A stretch of DNA of 31,437 nt, from positions 1 to 31,437 of the IMG/VR virus record IMGVR_UViG_3300027679_000022, one strand, 5' to 3'. How positions within the stretch are numbered: position 1 is the stretch's first letter; each line of letters opens with the position of its first letter. Origin of the DNA: a virus (Duplodnaviria > Caudoviricetes). A model generated the notes under the pieces. The model was not told the origin of the DNA, searched no databases, and saw only the letters and a list, made by a program, of their open reading frames with translations. Shown piece after piece: positions 11,919-20,737 of this stretch. Made by a program: the position numbers and the translations under genes.

Positions 11919-12914
11919 TTATACTGTAAGTAGAGACAATGCTTTAGTCTTTACCTTGTCATTGCGTCCACTCAAGGTGGCGGCAGCAAGGCGGTCTGCG
12001 CCACCTGTTGCATAATGGTCAGCATATTCAATGACTGCTTGCCATGCACCAAAGGCTGTGCCTCTGATGTTCTCTTGTGTTTCTGATTCATTGTAGATAA
12101 CCCACGCTTTAGCGCGTGCATCTTTAGCAATGGTCTGTTGCTTGCGCTCACCACGTGTAAGTAAATCGTATGGCTTATCTTCTACTGTAGTAGGTAGTGC
12201 CCATACTTTCTTGAAGAAGTTAACCGCTTGCTCACGGCTCATGTCTTTCTTTAGTAGGTTGTTAGCAACCAACTGATAGTCTGCTATAGCAGTGTATGTT
12301 AGGTGAGTGATGTTGCGAATGTCCGAGATAGATAACTCTTGGTTGGTTGAGTGAGTCATACGATATGTATACTCATTGTATTTCTGTCTGCTATTACTAA
12401 TCAAACCATTGACTTGATTAGCACAGAACAAACGCTCAATGATTGGCTTGATAACAACAGATGATGAACCATCATGTGATGTCTTAACCAATAAGAATGC
12501 AGCGTGTGGGTCATTGGCTACCTCTACACCTTGAGGTAATTCAAGTACCATCCAGATGTTAGCACCACCATTGAACTCACCTGCTGCTGCATAGCGTGCA
12601 TCACCTGCATCTACTAGTGTATCTAATGCGTTGAACACTTCCATGTTCTGTACTACCTTGTATTTAGTACCGACAATACCAATGACTGAGTTACTATCCT
12701 CACGGATAATAGCCTTCTTCTTTGGTACATCTAGGTATGTGGCTGGTGTTACACCATACTGGTCAATGATTAGTGGTGTGCTTACTGCTTCCAGTGCACC
12801 TGTGCGTACAGTCCAGTTAAGTCCTGCTTGTGTGGCTGCACTTGCAGCAGAGGTAGCCTCTACTGCAGTGCCACCGCGTACCCACGCTGACTTGTTCTTA
12901 CTCGTTACTGTCAT
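11919..12914 (-). CDS. DUF932/DUF945 family phage/plasmid protein (TIGR03299-like)
   Basis: AGLNWTV, YKVVQN, SHDGSSS, RLFCANQ and GTAFGAWQAVIEYADH motifs. Confidence 0.85.
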   Translation of the reverse strand: MTVTSKNKSAWVRGGTAVEATSAASAATQAGLNWTVRTGALEAVSTPLIIDQYGVTPATYLDVPKKKAIIREDSNSVIGIVGTKYKVVQNMEVFNALDTLVDAGDARYAAAGEFNGGANIWMVLELPQGVEVANDPHAAFLLVKTSHDGSSSVVIKPIIERLFCANQVNGLISNSRQKYNEYTYRMTHSTNQELSISDIRNITHLTYTAIADYQLVANNLLKKDMSREQAVNFFKKVWALPTTVEDKPYDLLTRGERKQQTIAKDARAKAWVIYNESETQENIRGTAFGAWQAVIEYADHYATGGADRLAAATLSGRNDKVKTKALSLLTV

Positions 12915-14393: not shown

Positions 14394-14750
14394 TTACCAA
14401 CTTGCATAGTACTCAAACATAGCGTCATCAACGCTCTGTTCAAAGACTGTATTTAGTTTGTCAATAGTATCACTGACATCTGACCAATACCATTCATCTA
14501 TTTTGTTGTTACCAAAGAAGAAACCTTCTGTTGGTGGTAGTAATTCCATTGCTCTTTCTTCTGTGCGTGCATTTAATACTTCTAGGCATACTTCGCGCAA
14601 TACATACAGGTCTCGTTTGGTTAATGGAATAGGTGTGCCGTTATCTATTGCACCACTATAAGCAATAATCCAACCATGAATAGCATTAGCCTTACGCCAG
14701 TATGCTACCTCATGTACTTGCTTCTCGTATAGATACATGTCTAGTCCCAT
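14394..14750 (-). CDS. Conserved phage hypothetical protein (MGLDMYL...YWRKANAIHGW family)
   Basis: Recognisable widespread phage motif, including LLPPTEGFFFG and a YYASW end. Confidence 0.8.
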   Translation of the reverse strand: MGLDMYLYEKQVHEVAYWRKANAIHGWIIAYSGAIDNGTPIPLTKRDLYVLREVCLEVLNARTEERAMELLPPTEGFFFGNNKIDEWYWSDVSDTIDKLNTVFEQSVDDAMFEYYASW

Positions 14751-15034
14751 AAGTTTCTCTCCCCTTCATTGTTTTCTGTCCATGGATGTAGTTTGTGTTG
14801 ATTTATCATTGCGTATGCAGGTGCAGTTGACTCACCGCGCCATGTTATACCTTCAGGTAAGATAATCAAACGATTAAGGTCATTTTCCCAGTATGCTTCG
14901 ATTGCATGCATGCATGGTTCAGCCATGCTTACTGGTACTGGTGGGTAGAAGTTACCTGTTAAGTGTATTTCTATTTGTTGTAGTTGAGTTAAGTTATCCA
15001 TACTTGCTAAGTCTGTTGCAAAGTTATTGCCCAT
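14741..15034 (-). CDS. Hypothetical protein (97 aa from MGNNFA)
   Basis: GGAGGT RBS and TAATG coupling at 15034. Confidence 0.7.
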   Translation of the reverse strand: MGNNFATDLASMDNLTQLQQIEIHLTGNFYPPVPVSMAEPCMHAIEAYWENDLNRLIILPEGITWRGESTAPAYAMINQHKLHPWTENNEGERNLWD

Positions 15035-15344: not shown

Positions 15345-15686
15345 TTAGTTTGTTACGACCTCGAAGACTTCCAACTGTAACTGTGGTGCTCGGCGGTCAT
15401 TCTCTGCGACATTTTGACGGCGGTCAAACCTTGTAACTAAGCGACCCTTGAGCGTAACCAAGTCTGATTGTTCAGCACCTGCTCGCGTTACCCCTAGGAT
15501 TTCACCTACTGTTGAGTCGTCCATTGCCACGATGTTGATACCACATACATACACCTGGCGGTCAGCCTCACCGTTACTGAATGCTGACACCTCACGCTGG
15601 TCAAACCAACCTGTCACCATGGTTCCCTTTGAACCTGTGTACTGACGGACATTCTTAATCTTACCTGTAATTGTTACTTCGTTCAT
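15345..15686 (-). CDS. Single-stranded DNA-binding protein (OB fold), lacking an acidic tail
   Basis: MNEVTITGKI...LVTLKGRLVTRFD...QLEVFEV SSB-like pattern. Confidence 0.7.
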   Translation of the reverse strand: MNEVTITGKIKNVRQYTGSKGTMVTGWFDQREVSAFSNGEADRQVYVCGINIVAMDDSTVGEILGVTRAGAEQSDLVTLKGRLVTRFDRRQNVAENDRRAPQLQLEVFEVVTN

Positions 15687-15932: not shown

Positions 15933-16378
15933 CGTACATTCCCTTCTAGTGTGCGGTCACACGCTTGACAATCGTTGAACAACTTGGGTGTGAGTATGTT
16001 GCACCATGGGCACTGAACCTCACGACTGCGCTGGCGCATGTCGTCTAGTTCCCATAGTTCCTCATACACACCACCGTCTTGAAGGTTGGTGATTGGTTCT
16101 CTGTATTCCTCGCGTGTGTCCTCCCATGTCTGAGTAGCCCATACGAAGTATGGTTCTACTCTAGTGGTTGAACTTACCCAATCATGTCCACTTGGCATGT
16201 CTTTAAGCCAACTCCACGGACTACTGTATTGCAGGTTGCCCTCATCAACGAGTTGATGGGCAACTGCACTGTCCCTTGCTTCGCGTAGTTCTAAGCAGTT
16301 GTCACATACATCATCAAGCATCATGCAGTCATAGCATTGTGAGGTTACTGAGATACCTTGAGTTGTGTATTCGGTCAT
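15929..16378 (-). CDS. First gene of the leftward arm; Cys-rich protein with N- and C-terminal CxxC pairs
   Basis: CYDC/CDNC and CPWC/CQAC; GAAAGG RBS. Confidence 0.75.
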   Translation of the reverse strand: MTEYTTQGISVTSQCYDCMMLDDVCDNCLELREARDSAVAHQLVDEGNLQYSSPWSWLKDMPSGHDWVSSTTRVEPYFVWATQTWEDTREEYREPITNLQDGGVYEELWELDDMRQRSREVQCPWCNILTPKLFNDCQACDRTLEGNVR

Positions 16379-16449
16379 TGTCTTGCCTTTCGTCTTGTGT
16401 ATCCACCGACTGTGAATACGCCATTTGAAGTATCATGTAGCCTACGCAT

Positions 16450-17420
16450 ATCGTGACGAGAGAAGCGAGGAACGAAGGAGTAGGCGTCGTCACTCAGTTA
16501 GCCAATTCTTTGGCTGACTGCGGGGCGTGGCTGGACTGCGAGCCTGCGAGCAGGCGCACGCTTGCGGGCGCTTCAGACACGACAGATGCGTTGGGTGTAG
16601 GCGAAGGCGACTTAATTCCATGGGAATTTCGCCGAGACGCAACCCACGCTGAGAGTAATCGTGACCGCTTTGCTCTGCTGAATAGGCAGAGCAGGGAACG
16701 ATTTGACGGTCATGATACGATGATGGCATCGTAAGGAGGACGAGCCTGAGCATGGCTTGCATGGCTAGTGAGCGAGACTTGATGAGCGAACTAGACAGGC
16801 TTGACAGGCTGGCGAGAGATGTGGCTGGCGCGTAGTCGAAGAACCGAGGCTTGCCGAGACTTCTGAGACTAGCGAGTGGAACGAGCGGCGCGAGGCGCGT
16901 GGATACGCGACCTACAGCCTTCGGTCCGACCCTCAAAGACAAGCCGAATGCGAGCGTAGTTCAGCGAGCGTCTATGAGGTGCAGTCGGTATGACTGAACT
17001 GGTGAGGGTTATTCACCATTGCCAAGGCATAAGTTCATAGACGGACACGATAGGACAGCAGACGCTTTGCTCCTTGCTTGCAAGGATAGCAAAGAACTGC
17101 TTGGGTACGATTGAGGCTTCTCCGCAACACAGCGGACCGAGGACCTGCTACCGAACAAGGAGGGACCTGCTTAGCAGGCGTGCAGACGCCCCGAGCCTGC
17201 GAGGGGAACTGCTAGACTGCGGGCAGACGCCCGACATTGTGAGGTGCAGACGCCGAGGCATGAACAGAACTGCTTGCAGACGCTGTTCATTAAGAAGCCG
17301 ATTGAGTAGCCTGTCCTAGTACATACATTTATTTTTACTAGGTATGTATCAGACTGAGCCTCAGTCTGCAGGCAGACAGTATCCTGTCTGACAGCACTCA
17401 GTATAGTGTTCTGTCTGTAC
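16450..17420 (+). ncRNA. Large highly structured non-coding element (candidate ncRNA or folded ssDNA) of unknown family
   Basis: Continuous nested stems, G-U/G-T pairs readable on the + strand, a multi-branch junction and a five-fold repeated internal loop. GC- and purine-richer than its flanks, with no credible ORF. Confidence 0.6.
17058..17283 (+). repeat. Five GCAGACGC and five GA[A/C]CTGCT interleaved repeats
   Basis: GCAGACGC at 17058, 17182, 17223, 17246 and 17276; GA[A/C]CTGCT at 17094, 17142, 17164, 17206 and 17267. Confidence 0.9.
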
Positions 17421-17715
17421 AATAACAGTCCTGTCTAGTATCTATGACCCCCATAGTTTTAACTGTAGTGGATATTATATACTGTATCTCTACCTAAAAA
17501 TATTTCTGTATATAGTTACAGGGGGGTAGATAGATAGTCTGACCAGCACTTATATAAATACTTTAGAATAAAACGTTCGTTTTACCTGTTTGAACGGATT
17601 ATATATAAGTAGAGAGTTAAATAGTTCAGAACTCTTTTTATTGAGTTCTTCACTCTGTTACAGACTACTGTACAAACAACTATCTGTAGGGCGGGGGGAC
17701 TCTGCCACAAAGGAG
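17420..17715. promoter_or_regulatory. AT-rich inverted-repeat region upstream of terminase (candidate late promoter, origin or packaging site)
   Basis: ACTTATATA (17548) / TATATAAGT (17602), TCTACC/GGTAGA and GAACTC/GAGTTC inverted repeats; many CTGT motifs. Confidence 0.45.
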
Positions 17716-17721
17716 AAGAAC

Positions 17722-19629
17722 GTGGCAACACCAGCGCATAAGGGATTTAAAAAGGGTGGGGAGCACCACCTCGCCAAGGGGGTAACCCAAGCCAAGGCAG
17801 ATGTTATTGCTAGGGTCAAGGCAGGTGTATCTGTCCAAGCCGCTATGGTTGCGGCGGGTAAGAAACCCGATACTGTGCGCCAATGGATGAATCGTGACCC
17901 TGAGTTCGCCCGTGCCTTGGAAGAAGCCAAGGAAGAAGGCGGCAAGCAATCCTTCACCGCCTTGGGCGTCGAGAAGGAATCTATCCCATTTGCGGACTTC
18001 TCTAAGATGTTTTTTGACCAGACGGTATTCCCACATCATCAGGACTGGGTAGACCTACTGGAAGGGCGCGAACCTACGTGGCTCCACCCTTCTATGATTT
18101 ATGAGCCAGGCGAGGGGAACCGCCTACTTATCAATGTGCCTCCTGAGCACGCTAAGTCCACCGTTATCACGGTGAACTATCCAACTTACCGCATCGCCCT
18201 CAATCCTAACATCCGCATTATCGTGGTATCAAAGACATTGAATAAGGCACGCGAGTTCGTATACGCTATAAAGCAACGACTGTCTCACCCACGCTGGCTT
18301 AAACTGCAGACCGCTTATGGTCCAGAGGGCGGCTGGAAAGAAGACGCAGATACTTGGCGTACCGATACTGTCTATCTTGGCGGCGATGCGCGTAATTCTA
18401 GTGAGAAGGACCCAACCCTTCAGGCACTAGGTATGGGTGGTCAGATTTACGGTGCACGTGCTGATTTGATTATTCTTGACGACTGTATTACTACTGCTAA
18501 CGCCCACGAGTGGGAACAGCAGATTAACTGGTTACAGAAAGAAGTTATTACCCGTTTGGGTAAGAATGGTAAACTTTTAATAGTAGGGACACGAATTGCG
18601 GCAAATGACCTTTACAAAGAACTACGCAACCCTAAGCACTGGTCTGGCGGTAAAACACCGTTTACGTATATGGGTATGCCTGCGGTTCTTGATTATTCTG
18701 AGAAACCCGAAAACTGGAAAACCTTATGGCATGAGTCGGATAGCCCGTGGGATGGTGATTCGGACACTCCAAAAGCAAATGGACGTTATCCTAAGTGGGA
18801 CGGACAAGCACTCTTTAAGAGACGTAGTGAAGTTACGCCATCAACATGGGCACTCGTTTACCAGCAAGAAGACATCCAAGAAGACTCCATTTTCCCACCC
18901 GTGCTGGTGCAAGGGTCAACTAATGGGATGCGGAAGCGAGGTCCACTAAAGGCTGGTGCTGCTGGACATCCACCTCAGGTTGAGGGTTTACATACTGTAA
19001 TTGGATTTGACCCTGCTATGGCAGGTAACGCTGCATTTGTTGTAGTTGCATACAACAGGGCAGATGGAAAGATTTATGTGTTGGATTGTGTCAACATGGA
19101 AGAACCAACACCACAAAAGATTAGGGCAACAATTGAAGAACTCGTTATTAAGTACAGACCACAAGAGTTCCGAGTTGAAATCAACGCCCACCAAAAAGCC
19201 TACTCCCTTGACGAAGAACTACGAGGGTGGCTCGCTTCATACGGCGTACGGCTTGATGCTCACTTTACAGGCAAGAACAAATGGGACACATCTTTCGGCG
19301 TTGCCTCAATGTCCAACCTCTTTGGCACTGTCCGTGATGAGAAGTTTCAAAAGAACAACATTATAGAACTACCTTCATCTGAAGGTTCTGAAGGTATCAA
19401 AGCCTTAACTCAGCAACTTCTTACATGGAAGCCAGAGACTAAGGGTAAGACCGATACAGTCATGGCTTTATGGTTTGCCATTATACGCATCCGCGAGTTA
19501 ATGCAATCTGCAAGCCGAGCATCACAATACGCAAATAACAGATGGGCAACTCGTGCTCAAATGAACCAACGCCTTGCGGTAAACCTCGATGAGATGTTTG
19601 CAGAGCAATGGCAAGAAAACTACGGATAA
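17722..19629 (+). CDS. terL: Terminase large subunit with N-terminal HTH (TerS-like) extension
   Basis: AAGGAG plus GTG 17722; Walker A variant NVPPEHAKST, Walker B LIILDD, coupling motif VGTR, RNase-H IGFDPA and DTVMALW. Confidence 0.9.
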   Translation: MATPAHKGFKKGGEHHLAKGVTQAKADVIARVKAGVSVQAAMVAAGKKPDTVRQWMNRDPEFARALEEAKEEGGKQSFTALGVEKESIPFADFSKMFFDQTVFPHHQDWVDLLEGREPTWLHPSMIYEPGEGNRLLINVPPEHAKSTVITVNYPTYRIALNPNIRIIVVSKTLNKAREFVYAIKQRLSHPRWLKLQTAYGPEGGWKEDADTWRTDTVYLGGDARNSSEKDPTLQALGMGGQIYGARADLIILDDCITTANAHEWEQQINWLQKEVITRLGKNGKLLIVGTRIAANDLYKELRNPKHWSGGKTPFTYMGMPAVLDYSEKPENWKTLWHESDSPWDGDSDTPKANGRYPKWDGQALFKRRSEVTPSTWALVYQQEDIQEDSIFPPVLVQGSTNGMRKRGPLKAGAAGHPPQVEGLHTVIGFDPAMAGNAAFVVVAYNRADGKIYVLDCVNMEEPTPQKIRATIEELVIKYRPQEFRVEINAHQKAYSLDEELRGWLASYGVRLDAHFTGKNKWDTSFGVASMSNLFGTVRDEKFQKNNIIELPSSEGSEGIKALTQQLLTWKPETKGKTDTVMALWFAIIRIRELMQSASRASQYANNRWATRAQMNQRLAVNLDEMFAEQWQENYG

Positions 19630-19641
19630 GGAAAATAAAAA

Positions 19642-20232
19642 ATGGCAGCAAAATCTGCAGATGATGCTCGTAAAAAAGCAATGATGTCTAAGAAAGCAAA
19701 ATTTAAGCCAGCAACACCATCAAAGTCAATGACAAAAACAGTTGTTTCATATGATAAAGCAACTGGAGTAAAGATACTTAAGCCTGGTTCACGACCTCTT
19801 ACTCAAAGTAATACTCAATTAAAAGCAGCAGCAGAAAAGGCTAAGACCAAGACTCCTGCTGCTGTAGAACAAATAAAAAGAAACATGAAGTTAGCAGAAA
19901 AAACTGCAGTTCGTGAAGTTAGAAACAATAGACAATATTTGCTTAACCAGACTATGCGCGAGGCTTGGCAAACTGATTACAAGAAGCCATTAACTCCTGC
20001 TCAAATAAAAGCAGGTAATGCTGCTTATGAAGCCAAAGCAAGAGAATTAAAGGCAAGTTTTGCTCAAGCAAAGAAAGCAGCAGCAGCAGCAGTTAGAAAA
20101 TTATCCGCAGAACAAACTAAAGCAAGTATTAAGAAGTATGGTACATCAAAAGGTTTTGGCGGTGGTAGTTCAGGTGGCAGCGCATTTACTGGTAGTTCAT
20201 CAACCAAAGTCGGCATTACCTACACTAAGTAA
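19642..20232 (+). CDS. Lys/Ala-rich basic protein (196 aa)
   Basis: AAGGA RBS; strongly basic low-complexity sequence. Confidence 0.75.
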   Translation: MAAKSADDARKKAMMSKKAKFKPATPSKSMTKTVVSYDKATGVKILKPGSRPLTQSNTQLKAAAEKAKTKTPAAVEQIKRNMKLAEKTAVREVRNNRQYLLNQTMREAWQTDYKKPLTPAQIKAGNAAYEAKARELKASFAQAKKAAAAAVRKLSAEQTKASIKKYGTSKGFGGGSSGGSAFTGSSSTKVGITYTK

Positions 20233-20245
20233 TTAAGGAAAACAA

Positions 20246-20737
20246 ATGGCACAAATGAGAAAATCTGCACCTCCTAAAAAGACTTTAACGCCACAGACTG
20301 CACGAAAAATAGTTAAAGGCGAGATGGTGCGTCAGTCTACACTTGACCAAATTAGAAAAGACGGCATGGCAAAAGCCATTGGAAAAGTTAAGGCTGGCAA
20401 AGCAACTCCTGAATATAGAGCGGGTGCTACCCGTATGTATGGTACTAAGAGAGTTCCACCTGTAGTAAAAAAGGCTGTAAAGAAAAACTATTCACCGCCT
20501 TATGACCCAACAGTTTGGGACCCATTTATTGACCCAGTAATGGGTGGTATGCGTAAAGTAATGAATACTACACTAAATTCAGTAGGTAAAGTGGGTAAGG
20601 CTTATGGTCAATACACAAAGGCTACAACTGTAGATGCACCAAAAACAATTAAAAAGGTTGTAGGTGTAGTAAAGAAGGGTATTGAATCAAAGGGAAAGAG
20701 AACACCTCGCCTTAAAGATAGACTTAGAAAAGGATAA
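20246..20737 (+). CDS. Lys-rich basic protein (163 aa)
   Basis: AAGGA RBS; K/R-rich. Confidence 0.75.
   Translation: MAQMRKSAPPKKTLTPQTARKIVKGEMVRQSTLDQIRKDGMAKAIGKVKAGKATPEYRAGATRMYGTKRVPPVVKKAVKKNYSPPYDPTVWDPFIDPVMGGMRKVMNTTLNSVGKVGKAYGQYTKATTVDAPKTIKKVVGVVKKGIESKGKRTPRLKDRLRKG

What the first reader, a model, noticed from the sequence alone, without database searches (positions are those of the whole stretch)
17051..17318. Five copies of one internal-loop module built into a single nested fold, next to the terminase gene
Seen: five GCAGACGC and five GA[A/C]CTGCT motifs pair off without conflict: 17058-17094, 17182-17206, 17164-17223, 17142-17246 and 17267-17276. Each forms a GCAG/CTGC helix, an ACG x A[A/C] 3x2 internal loop and a second helix. 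The second helix differs in sequence between copies but stays paired (CTTTGC/GCAAAG, CCCC/GGGG, GGG/CCC, GG/CC, ATGAACAG/CTGTTCAT), and the module occurs in both permutations. This amounts to internal covariation and argues for a selected structural or protein-binding motif. Established: phage packaging ATPases work as pentamers, and phi29 uses an oligomeric pRNA. Speculative inference: a multivalent scaffold for an oligomeric protein (terminase, its HTH, or a host protein being sponged).
Basis: partly seen in the sequence, partly recalled or inferred. Interest (0 to 1): 0.88.

Follow-up and report, generated by a model that had tools for sequence, protein, structure and literature searches.

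The report
Folded-DNA cassette at phage chromosome end
A freshwater bacterial virus carries, right beside the likely end of its chromosome, a 265-base stretch that most close relatives lack; one strand is predicted to fold into a branched shape showing five copies of the same kinked motif, and it likely works as folded single-stranded DNA that binds one protein several times over rather than as a packaging RNA.

Summary
Five GCAGACGC and five GA[A/C]CTGC strands pair as described (RNA z -5.1, DNA z -4.2). Eight other phage contigs keep the same fold with 4 or 5 modules and always keep both strands (39 to 39).

The pRNA-like reading fails. Most relatives with 92-94% identical terminase lack the element, ten of them with an exact empty site.

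The location is the new clue. The nearest cultured phages (Streptomyces cluster BF) have 253-275 bp terminal repeats here. Conserved anchors place this phage's repeat at about 17313-17485, so the element is the last unique DNA at the right genome end, on the strand that would be left as a 3' single-stranded tail.

Across 51 relatives that strand folds better than shuffles. It carries tandem GA/GA pairs (36, against 0 on the other strand) and GNA triloops, and almost no RNA-type tetraloops.

Best reading: an exchangeable folded-ssDNA cassette that offers 4-5 identical distorted-helix sites to a host protein (0.40). An RNA reading remains (0.22). No partner was identified, and nothing was tested at the bench.

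The parts
17053..17316 (+). The branched fold: closing stem 17053-17057 with 17312-17316, two multi-way junctions, four arms
   Evidence: MFE and pair probabilities; closing stem changes on both sides at 2 pairs across 9 sequences
17048..17312 (+). Exchangeable cassette, absent at an exact empty site in relatives
   Evidence: blastn breakpoints 17047/17313; 10 loci with the empty junction
17058..17100 (+). Module 1 (17058-17065 with 17094-17100); arm capped by a C-TT-G loop
   Evidence: invariant in 9 of 9 except the A/C position
17142..17253 (+). Module 2 (17142-17148 with 17246-17253)
17164..17230 (+). Module 3 (17164-17170 with 17223-17230)
17182..17212 (+). Module 4 (17182-17189 with 17206-17212), in a tip extension of about 42 bases found in 3 of 9 sequences; the other 6 end in a GC-GTA-GC triloop
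17267..17283 (+). Module 5 (17267-17273 with 17276-17283), closed by a 2-base TT loop
17109..17305 (+). Six tandem GA/GA mismatches: 17109/17304, 17113/17300, 17139/17255, 17153/17241, 17160/17233, 17193/17201
   Evidence: read from the structure; the GA letters of the five outside the tip are invariant in alignment A3
17313..17485 (.). Predicted direct terminal repeat, about 173 bp; right end well supported, left end approximate
   Evidence: 27 bases from TTAA to the end in BF phages and in 54 of 68 anchors; fold-back in L001 ends at 17485; A|GTC junction and composition step 170-190 bases in
16400..17047 (+). Rest of the non-coding right end: a mosaic of other hairpin modules rich in tandem GA
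   Evidence: z -4.97 as DNA and -4.42 as RNA; mosaic blastn cover
17725..19629 (+). Terminase large subunit with a weak small-subunit-like N-terminal domain (residues about 23-75); start codon chosen by me
   Evidence: phrog_38 E 3.7e-71, phrog_4044 E 3e-5; 43% identical to cluster BF terminases
15345..15686 (-). SSB/PriB-like protein near the right end (context only)
   Evidence: ESM Atlas look-alikes 0.90-0.94; no Pfam or PHROG hit

Best explanation
This is an accessory 265-base cassette that likely sits just inside the right terminal repeat of a linear phage genome and likely folds as single-stranded DNA, displaying four or five identical distorted-helix sites that would bind one protein, probably a host DNA-end or ssDNA-sensing protein, several times over. 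Steps: (1) shown: the motifs, the patchy presence and the exact empty site. (2) Predicted: the nested fold. (3) Inferred from cluster BF phages and conserved anchors: the terminal repeat at about 17313-17485. (4) From general knowledge (recalled, T7 model): the + strand is the 3'-terminal strand of the right end, so it is left unpaired after each round of replication or after 5' resection. (5) Inferred: that tail folds up through tandem GA pairs and mini-hairpins, hiding about 900 bases of ssDNA while the repeat stays free to anneal. (6) Speculative: the repeated 3x2 loop is a decoy or docking site that helps against some hosts, hence its gain and loss between lineages.
For: Position. The same layout (terL first, early genes leftward, about 1.4 kb non-coding right end) occurs in BF phages with 253 and 275 bp repeats. 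TTAA lies 27 bases from the end in the BF ends examined and 27 bases from GT|A in 54 of 68 distinct freshwater anchors. A fold-back in the twin contig L001 ends exactly at 17485; 2 of 8 truncated left-arm contigs stop at that site or 4 bases short. All 9 carriers hold the element 169-195 bases from that end. Strand. 51 of 51 deduplicated right ends fold better than their shuffles; GA/GA loops number 36 on +, 0 on - and 5.7 in shuffles. DNA style. GNRA/UNCG make up 1 of 62 tetraloops on the phage + strand against 6 of 9 in E. coli rRNA; GNA triloops are 10 of 69 on + and 4 of 77 on -, and 11 against 3.2 +/- 1.7 in shuffles. 8 of 9 element tips carry GC-GTA-GC; GCGNAGC is a very stable, exonuclease-resistant DNA mini-hairpin, and the RNA form of the related GCGAAAGC melts far lower (PMC13037366 passages). 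Only 1 of 612 paired cells is G-U and none changes on one side only, against 7 double changes. Accessory nature. No phage gene tracks the element in 5 carriers against 6 non-carriers, which points to a host or universal partner.
Against: The termini are inferred, not mapped; contig starts inside the predicted repeat are only marginally enriched (5 of 45, p 0.056). The window's own copy has no GNA triloop, and its C-TT-G loops also fit a known RNA tetraloop class (recalled). The RNA model scores the fold better than the DNA model (z -5.07 against -4.23). Under DNA parameters the nested pairing is weak in most homologs, and under RNA parameters it is weak in 4 of 9 (L043, L046, L207, L215). The two BF right ends tested show 0 GA/GA loops, so folding is not required for this kind of terminal repeat. 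Covariation is thin: 4 pairs in 9 sequences at 84% column identity. I chose the 68 pairs by hand and left out the tip and a TTA x G[G/T] loop where T-G could form, so the G-U count leans low. Tandem GA also occurs in RNA. No binding partner was identified.
Confidence: 0.4

Rival explanations
1. It is a + strand RNA, made by rightward transcription through the right end or the concatemer junction, that acts as a multivalent sponge or a packaging-coupled transcript.
For: Best folding score and cleanest module pairing under RNA parameters. Tandem GA and CUUG loops are known in RNA (recalled). T7 transcribes through its concatemer junction (recalled). Weinberg 2017 notes that ssDNA and RNA motifs are hard to tell apart computationally (PMC5737381 passage).
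Against: Almost no GNRA/UNCG loops family-wide. GNA triloop tips. Near absence of G-U. No consensus promoter in 16300-17800 and no terminator on + (a simple sigma-70 scan only). No Rfam match.
Confidence: 0.22
2. It is folded ssDNA with a purely architectural job. The module is a stable or self-docking building block that compacts the 3' tail and blocks exonucleases, with no protein partner.
For: All 51 right ends fold, most with other modules. DNA mini-hairpins resist 3' exonuclease and bind SSB poorly (PMC13037366 passages). Copies can arise by local duplication.
Against: All 39 modules keep the exact sequence, including the GCAG/CTGC helix, with only an A/C swap, while neighbouring helices vary. 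That is stricter than stability alone usually needs, although much other sequence is invariant too.
Confidence: 0.18
3. It is a single-strand initiation signal: the folded tail loads the phage primase, helicase or SSB/PriB-like protein to fill in the end or duplicate the terminal repeat.
For: The phage encodes primase, DnaB-like helicase, exonuclease and RusA and an SSB/PriB-like protein. GC skew turns at about 16500. Mini-hairpins mark primase sites in G4 and ssiA (PMC13037366 passages).
Against: A core replication signal should be in all relatives, but the module is at background level in non-carriers and the element is patchy.
Confidence: 0.12
4. It is a phi29 pRNA-like scaffold matched to a pentameric terminase.
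For: It lies about 400 bases upstream of terL; five modules in this copy; terL has an N-terminal small-subunit-like domain.
Against: Four modules in 6 of 9. Absent from relatives with 92-94% identical terminase. Present in three terL clades at 75-88% identity. Packaging is terminase and terminal-repeat type.
Confidence: 0.04
5. The motifs are dsDNA iterons and the fold is incidental.
For: GCAGAC also occurs in inverted repeats nearby.
Against: Partner strands are kept one for one (39 to 39), spacing is irregular, both permutations occur, and there are double changes.
Confidence: 0.02

Closest known systems
Functional folded ssDNA signals: G4/St-1/alpha3 primase origins, RSF1010 ssiA, N4 hairpin promoters (PMC13037366 passages); integron attC (PMC5737381 passage)
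   Same: One-strand DNA fold with GNA mini-hairpins and sheared G-A pairs near a replication or end signal
   Different: Those are simple hairpins of tens of bases. This is a 265-base multi-junction fold with 4-5 copies of one 3x2 loop, accessory, and likely at the end of a linear dsDNA genome.
Non-coding ends of terminal-repeat podoviruses: Streptomyces cluster BF / Beephvirinae (PMC9753666); T7-like flanks (PMC5923468 passage)
   Same: Same gene layout, TTAA-plus-27 right end and A|GTC left junction; high variability next to the repeats
   Different: The two BF ends tested have no GA/GA loops; no fold or module is described in the text I read.
T5 injection-stop region (bioRxiv 10.1101/866236 passages)
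   Same: Untranslated, repeat- and palindrome-rich DNA at the border of a terminal repeat
   Different: Conserved across T5-like phages and read as DnaA boxes in dsDNA; ours is exchangeable and strand-specific.
phi29 pRNA (recalled)
   Same: Compact multi-helix fold near packaging genes
   Different: pRNA is an essential transcript with interlocking loops and a phi29-type motor; this element is dispensable, varies in module number and has non-conserved or 2-3 base loops.
ARRPOF, GEBRO and PAGEV motifs (PMC5737381 passage)
   Same: 220-350 base conserved folds near replication regions, suspected to act as ssDNA
   Different: Plasmid-borne; no Rfam match to this element.

Membership tests
phi29-type pRNA | Present in every phage that shares the motor | tested here: not met
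   Absent from 11 of 15 records at least 90% complete; exact empty site in 10 loci
phi29-type pRNA | phi29-type ATPase and protein-primed genome | tested here: not met
   TerL with RNaseH-like domain; terminal-repeat relatives
phi29-type pRNA | Conserved complementary loops for ring formation | tested here: not met
   Loops are 2-3 bases or vary freely (alignment A3)
phi29-type pRNA | Made as a discrete RNA | tested here: inconclusive
   Only contig-level RNA runs were available
Any Rfam 15 family | Covariance-model match | tested here: not met
   0 at gathering score in the window; only a chance mir-21 hit at E 9.5 outside the element
Single-strand initiation signals (G4 ori, ssiA, PAS) | Strand-specific DNA hairpins with GNA or sheared G-A tips | tested here: met
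Single-strand initiation signals (G4 ori, ssiA, PAS) | Primase or primosome loading and primer synthesis | not testable with these tools
   Needs biochemistry
Single-strand initiation signals (G4 ori, ssiA, PAS) | Kept in replicons that share the replication proteins | tested here: not met
   Module at background in non-carriers
dsDNA iterons | Direct repeats kept without partner strands | tested here: not met
   39 A strands and 39 B strands in 9 sequences
Cluster BF-like terminal-repeat podoviruses (phage context) | terL first, leftward early arm, non-coding ends, conserved end anchors | tested here: met
Cluster BF-like terminal-repeat podoviruses (phage context) | Physical ends mapped from reads | not testable with these tools
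   No DNA run was laid; only contig ends and one fold-back
RNA C-loop or kink-turn motifs | Loop consensus (recalled) | tested here: inconclusive
   By eye the ACG x A[A/C] loop fits neither recalled consensus; no motif library was run

The most novel reading that the evidence does not exclude
Freshwater actinophages finish their linear chromosome with a natural DNA nanostructure. The 3' tail folds into branched, non-canonical DNA, and interchangeable aptamer-like cassettes such as this one present arrays of a sequence-specific internal loop that decoy host end-sensing or anti-phage proteins: a DNA counterpart of sponge RNAs, evolving by cassette swapping at the genome end.
Probability: 0.3. 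Interest if true: 0.92.

Novelty: new variant of a known kind. Interest (0 to 1): 0.74.

Why it matters
Natural functional ssDNA folds known so far are mostly simple hairpins; Weinberg 2017 calls a more complex one rare. A multi-junction fold with a repeated non-canonical module at a phage terminus would be a new use of DNA structure. It bears on how terminal-repeat phages handle the single-stranded tails of replication when hosts can sense exposed ssDNA (Druantia abstract). It is cheap to test, since the 265-mer can be made as DNA and as RNA and probed side by side. The end anchor (TTAA plus 27 bases) also lets the termini of a common uncultured freshwater phage group be predicted from sequence.

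Tried and rejected
RNA runs. 8 of the 19 listed runs were laid, all as contigs. None covers 16812-17404, though X1 matches 17624-19043 with no difference and X2/X3 cover about 16423-16724. Contigs cannot show absence, the holders were found through other parts of the query, and no DNA run was laid, so I do not count this as evidence.

Pattern scans. The two-motif scan gave only chance matches among the 120 loci checked. The metagenome scan stopped after 7 of 64 parts, and its 121 loci held no homolog. Three viral scans returned the same 9 contigs, one of them the window's twin. blastn against 50,697 GenBank phages found nothing.

A covariance model could not be calibrated at full length, so distant homologs were not sought that way.

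Gene co-occurrence in 5 carriers against 6 non-carriers found only shadow ORFs (the output was cut in the middle, the top-ranked rows were seen). A relaxed module search in 73 right-end regions, carriers left out, gave background counts. Enrichment of contig starts in the repeat was marginal. An automated fold-back search printed nothing; the L001 case rests. Tandem GA in BF ends: 0 in 2 tested; 3 more were fetched but not folded. Rfam control searches gave no loci, so E. coli rRNA was used as the control.

G-U fraction of whole-region folds (9.6% on +, 13.5% in shuffles) does not separate RNA from DNA and was not used. A TTGAC...TAnGAT motif near 16703 has 6-8 base spacing and was rejected as a standard promoter. 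ORFs over the element (81 and 83 aa) were not pursued, because the indels between homologs suit structure rather than coding. No complex prediction was sent, as there is no protein pair.

Full report
Observation. All five GCAGACGC copies of the window lie in 17058-17283 on the + strand, and five GA[A/C]CTGCT copies lie among them. Module pairing probability is 0.96-1.0 as RNA and 0.61-0.99 as DNA; z is -5.07 and -4.23. The fold also holds six tandem GA/GA mismatches and 2-base C-TT-G and C-CT-G tips. Rfam has no match.

The phage. PHROG hits show terminase, portal and long virion proteins to the right, and primase, DnaB-like helicase, exonuclease, RusA, a sigma-like factor and a transglycosylase to the left. 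A freshwater RNA run holds contigs identical to the window over 1,420 and 1,773 bases. The nearest named cultured relatives by terminase are Streptomyces cluster BF podoviruses at 43% identity, so an actinobacterial host is inferred.

Distribution. The terminase scan found 425 relatives and kept the best 80; 72 had upstream DNA and 60 had more than 500 bases. Five of those 60 carry the element, one being the window's twin L001. Three motif scans of the viral collection gave the same 9 contigs. Six have four modules and three have five; the two five-module tip types differ in sequence but keep pairing. All 39 GCAGACGC strands are matched by 39 partner strands, 21 with AA and 18 with AC. On 68 hand-chosen pairs, 97.5% of 612 cells pair, 4 pairs (7 cells) change on both sides, none changes on one side, and one cell is G-U. 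The standard energy models support the nested fold well in 5 of 9 sequences as RNA and poorly in most as DNA. The element was found in 8 of 25 handles searched; those 8 were chosen as known carriers, and 11 of 15 near-complete records lack it. Ten relatives show an exact empty site in which 17048-17312 is missing. On a quick terminase tree of 59 rows the 8 carriers need 4 changes, at least 3 forced by strong branches (L215 left out as too short, careful search unfinished). No gene tracks the element. It is therefore an exchangeable accessory cassette, which rules out an essential pRNA-like role.

Position at the genome end. BF phages have terminase as gene 1, a leftward arm ending about 1.4 kb before the right end, and 253 bp direct terminal repeats (PMC9753666, main text read); the two records compared give 253 and 275 bp. 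Their repeats begin ACA|GTCC and end 27 bases after a TTAA that follows an ACCC motif. This held in 4 of 5 by the script, and the fifth has a second TTAA inside the same 27 bases. The freshwater phages keep that anchor, with 27 bases to GT|A in 54 of 68 distinct cases. In the window this gives 17485. The twin contig L001 carries a 21-base fold-back ending exactly at 17485, and 2 of 8 truncated left-arm contigs stop at that site or 4 bases short. The empty site reads GGACA|GTCC at 17313; an AGT-rich, AT-rich zone stops 170-190 bases from the end in 82 distinct segments. Contig starts are only marginally enriched in the repeat (5 of 45, p 0.056). I infer a repeat of about 173 bp at 17313-17485. 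All 9 carriers place the element 169-195 bases from its right end. In the virion the element would be the last unique DNA of the right end, about 39 kb from terL.

DNA or RNA. By the recalled T7 model, the + strand is the 3' strand of that end and is left single after replication or 5' resection. It is also the strand that folds. In 51 deduplicated right ends (of 73), 600-base segments beat their shuffle mean in 51 of 51 and beat the - strand in 41 of 51; GA/GA loops number 36 on +, 0 on - and 5.7 in shuffles. Among hairpins with stems of 6 or more pairs, GNRA or UNCG are 1 of 62 tetraloops on the phage + strand and 8 of 68 on -, against 6 of 9 in E. coli rRNA; GNA are 10 of 69 triloops on + and 4 of 77 on -. 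Eight of nine element tips are GC-GTA-GC, a DNA mini-hairpin that resists 3' exonuclease; the RNA form of the related GCGAAAGC melts at 39 rather than 76.5 degrees (PMC13037366, passages). Against this: the window's copy lacks that tip, RNA parameters fit the fold better, CUUG and tandem GA are known in RNA (recalled), and the two BF ends tested have no GA/GA. The RNA runs are told under Tried and rejected only. I put ssDNA at about 0.7 and RNA at about 0.25.

Mechanism. The family-wide fold likely hides and protects about 900 bases of tail while the repeat stays free to anneal; terminal repeats join T7-like concatemers (PMC5923468, passage). Exposed ssDNA can trigger immunity (Druantia preprint 10.64898/2026.05.13.724758, abstract and outline). 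The module is specific to this cassette and invariant except for A/C, which would suit a sheared A-A or A-C pair (recalled isostericity). Strict sequence, variable copy number, lateral exchange and no linked phage gene fit a multivalent site for a host protein best (0.40). Rivals are RNA (0.22), pure architecture (0.18), primase loading (0.12), pRNA-like (0.04) and iterons (0.02). The partner and the binding are not shown.

Literature. Nine searches of the held library (listings and abstract starts) showed no description of this element or of folded ssDNA at such phage ends; most subscription papers are not held. Weinberg 2017 (PMC5737381, passages) says a multistem ssDNA would be rare; its supplement could not be read. 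Fremin 2023 (PMC10690425, passages) lists 14 candidate RNAs upstream of a large terminase. Its readable tables hold neither the motif nor the contig ids tried, but its alignment archives and PDFs could not be read and might include this element. The T5 preprint (10.1101/866236, passages) gives a loose analogue. PMC13298934 (passages) added nothing.

Verdict. The element is real and conserved, is accessory, and is undescribed as far as I could search. It works like known folded-ssDNA signals but is not a member of any tested family. Interest 0.74.

Noticed in passing
window 16400-17047 and relatives L002-L080, L382-L430: The whole non-coding right end is a mosaic of swappable hairpin modules with strand-specific tandem GA; several other recurrent modules are shared among subsets of phages and deserve their own study.
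   Followed up: partly
window 17443-17500: A GACCC...TTAA anchor with an invariant 27-base distance to the repeat end is shared from Streptomyces BF phages to freshwater phages: a likely terminase cut or measuring signal.
   Followed up: partly
L001 1072-1092: Inverted duplicate of window 17465-17485 in the twin contig, probably an assembly trace of a physical DNA end.
   Followed up: yes
window 17725-17950: TerL has an N-terminal small-subunit-like HTH domain (weak PHROG and Pfam hits), suggesting a fused terminase.
   Followed up: no
window 17575-17615: A GTTCG...TTGAACGG palindrome with an AT-rich box is conserved in nearly all relatives; one RNA contig starts at 17624. Candidate late promoter.
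   Followed up: no
window 16655-16725: A conserved hairpin closed by GTCA/TGAC arms, followed by a TAnGAT box with non-standard spacing, at the left edge of the variable zone.
   Followed up: partly
window 15345-15686 (-): Unannotated SSB/PriB-like protein among the first early genes.
   Followed up: partly
window 11919-12914 (-): DUF932 / TIGR03299-type protein present in the replication arm.
   Followed up: partly
window 14745-15030: Two RNA runs hold contigs that skip 284 bases, most of the 111-aa ORF: a strain lacking this gene.
   Followed up: no
window 19642-20737: Two very basic proteins (196 and 163 aa) with no PHROG or Pfam hit, poorly shared with the ten other genomes compared.
   Followed up: no
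L379, L380 (BF right ends): Repeated leftward TTGACA promoter-like units with a hairpin in the spacer.
   Followed up: no
L338: Unrelated 32-base tandem repeat containing both motif halves; a chance pattern hit.
   Followed up: no
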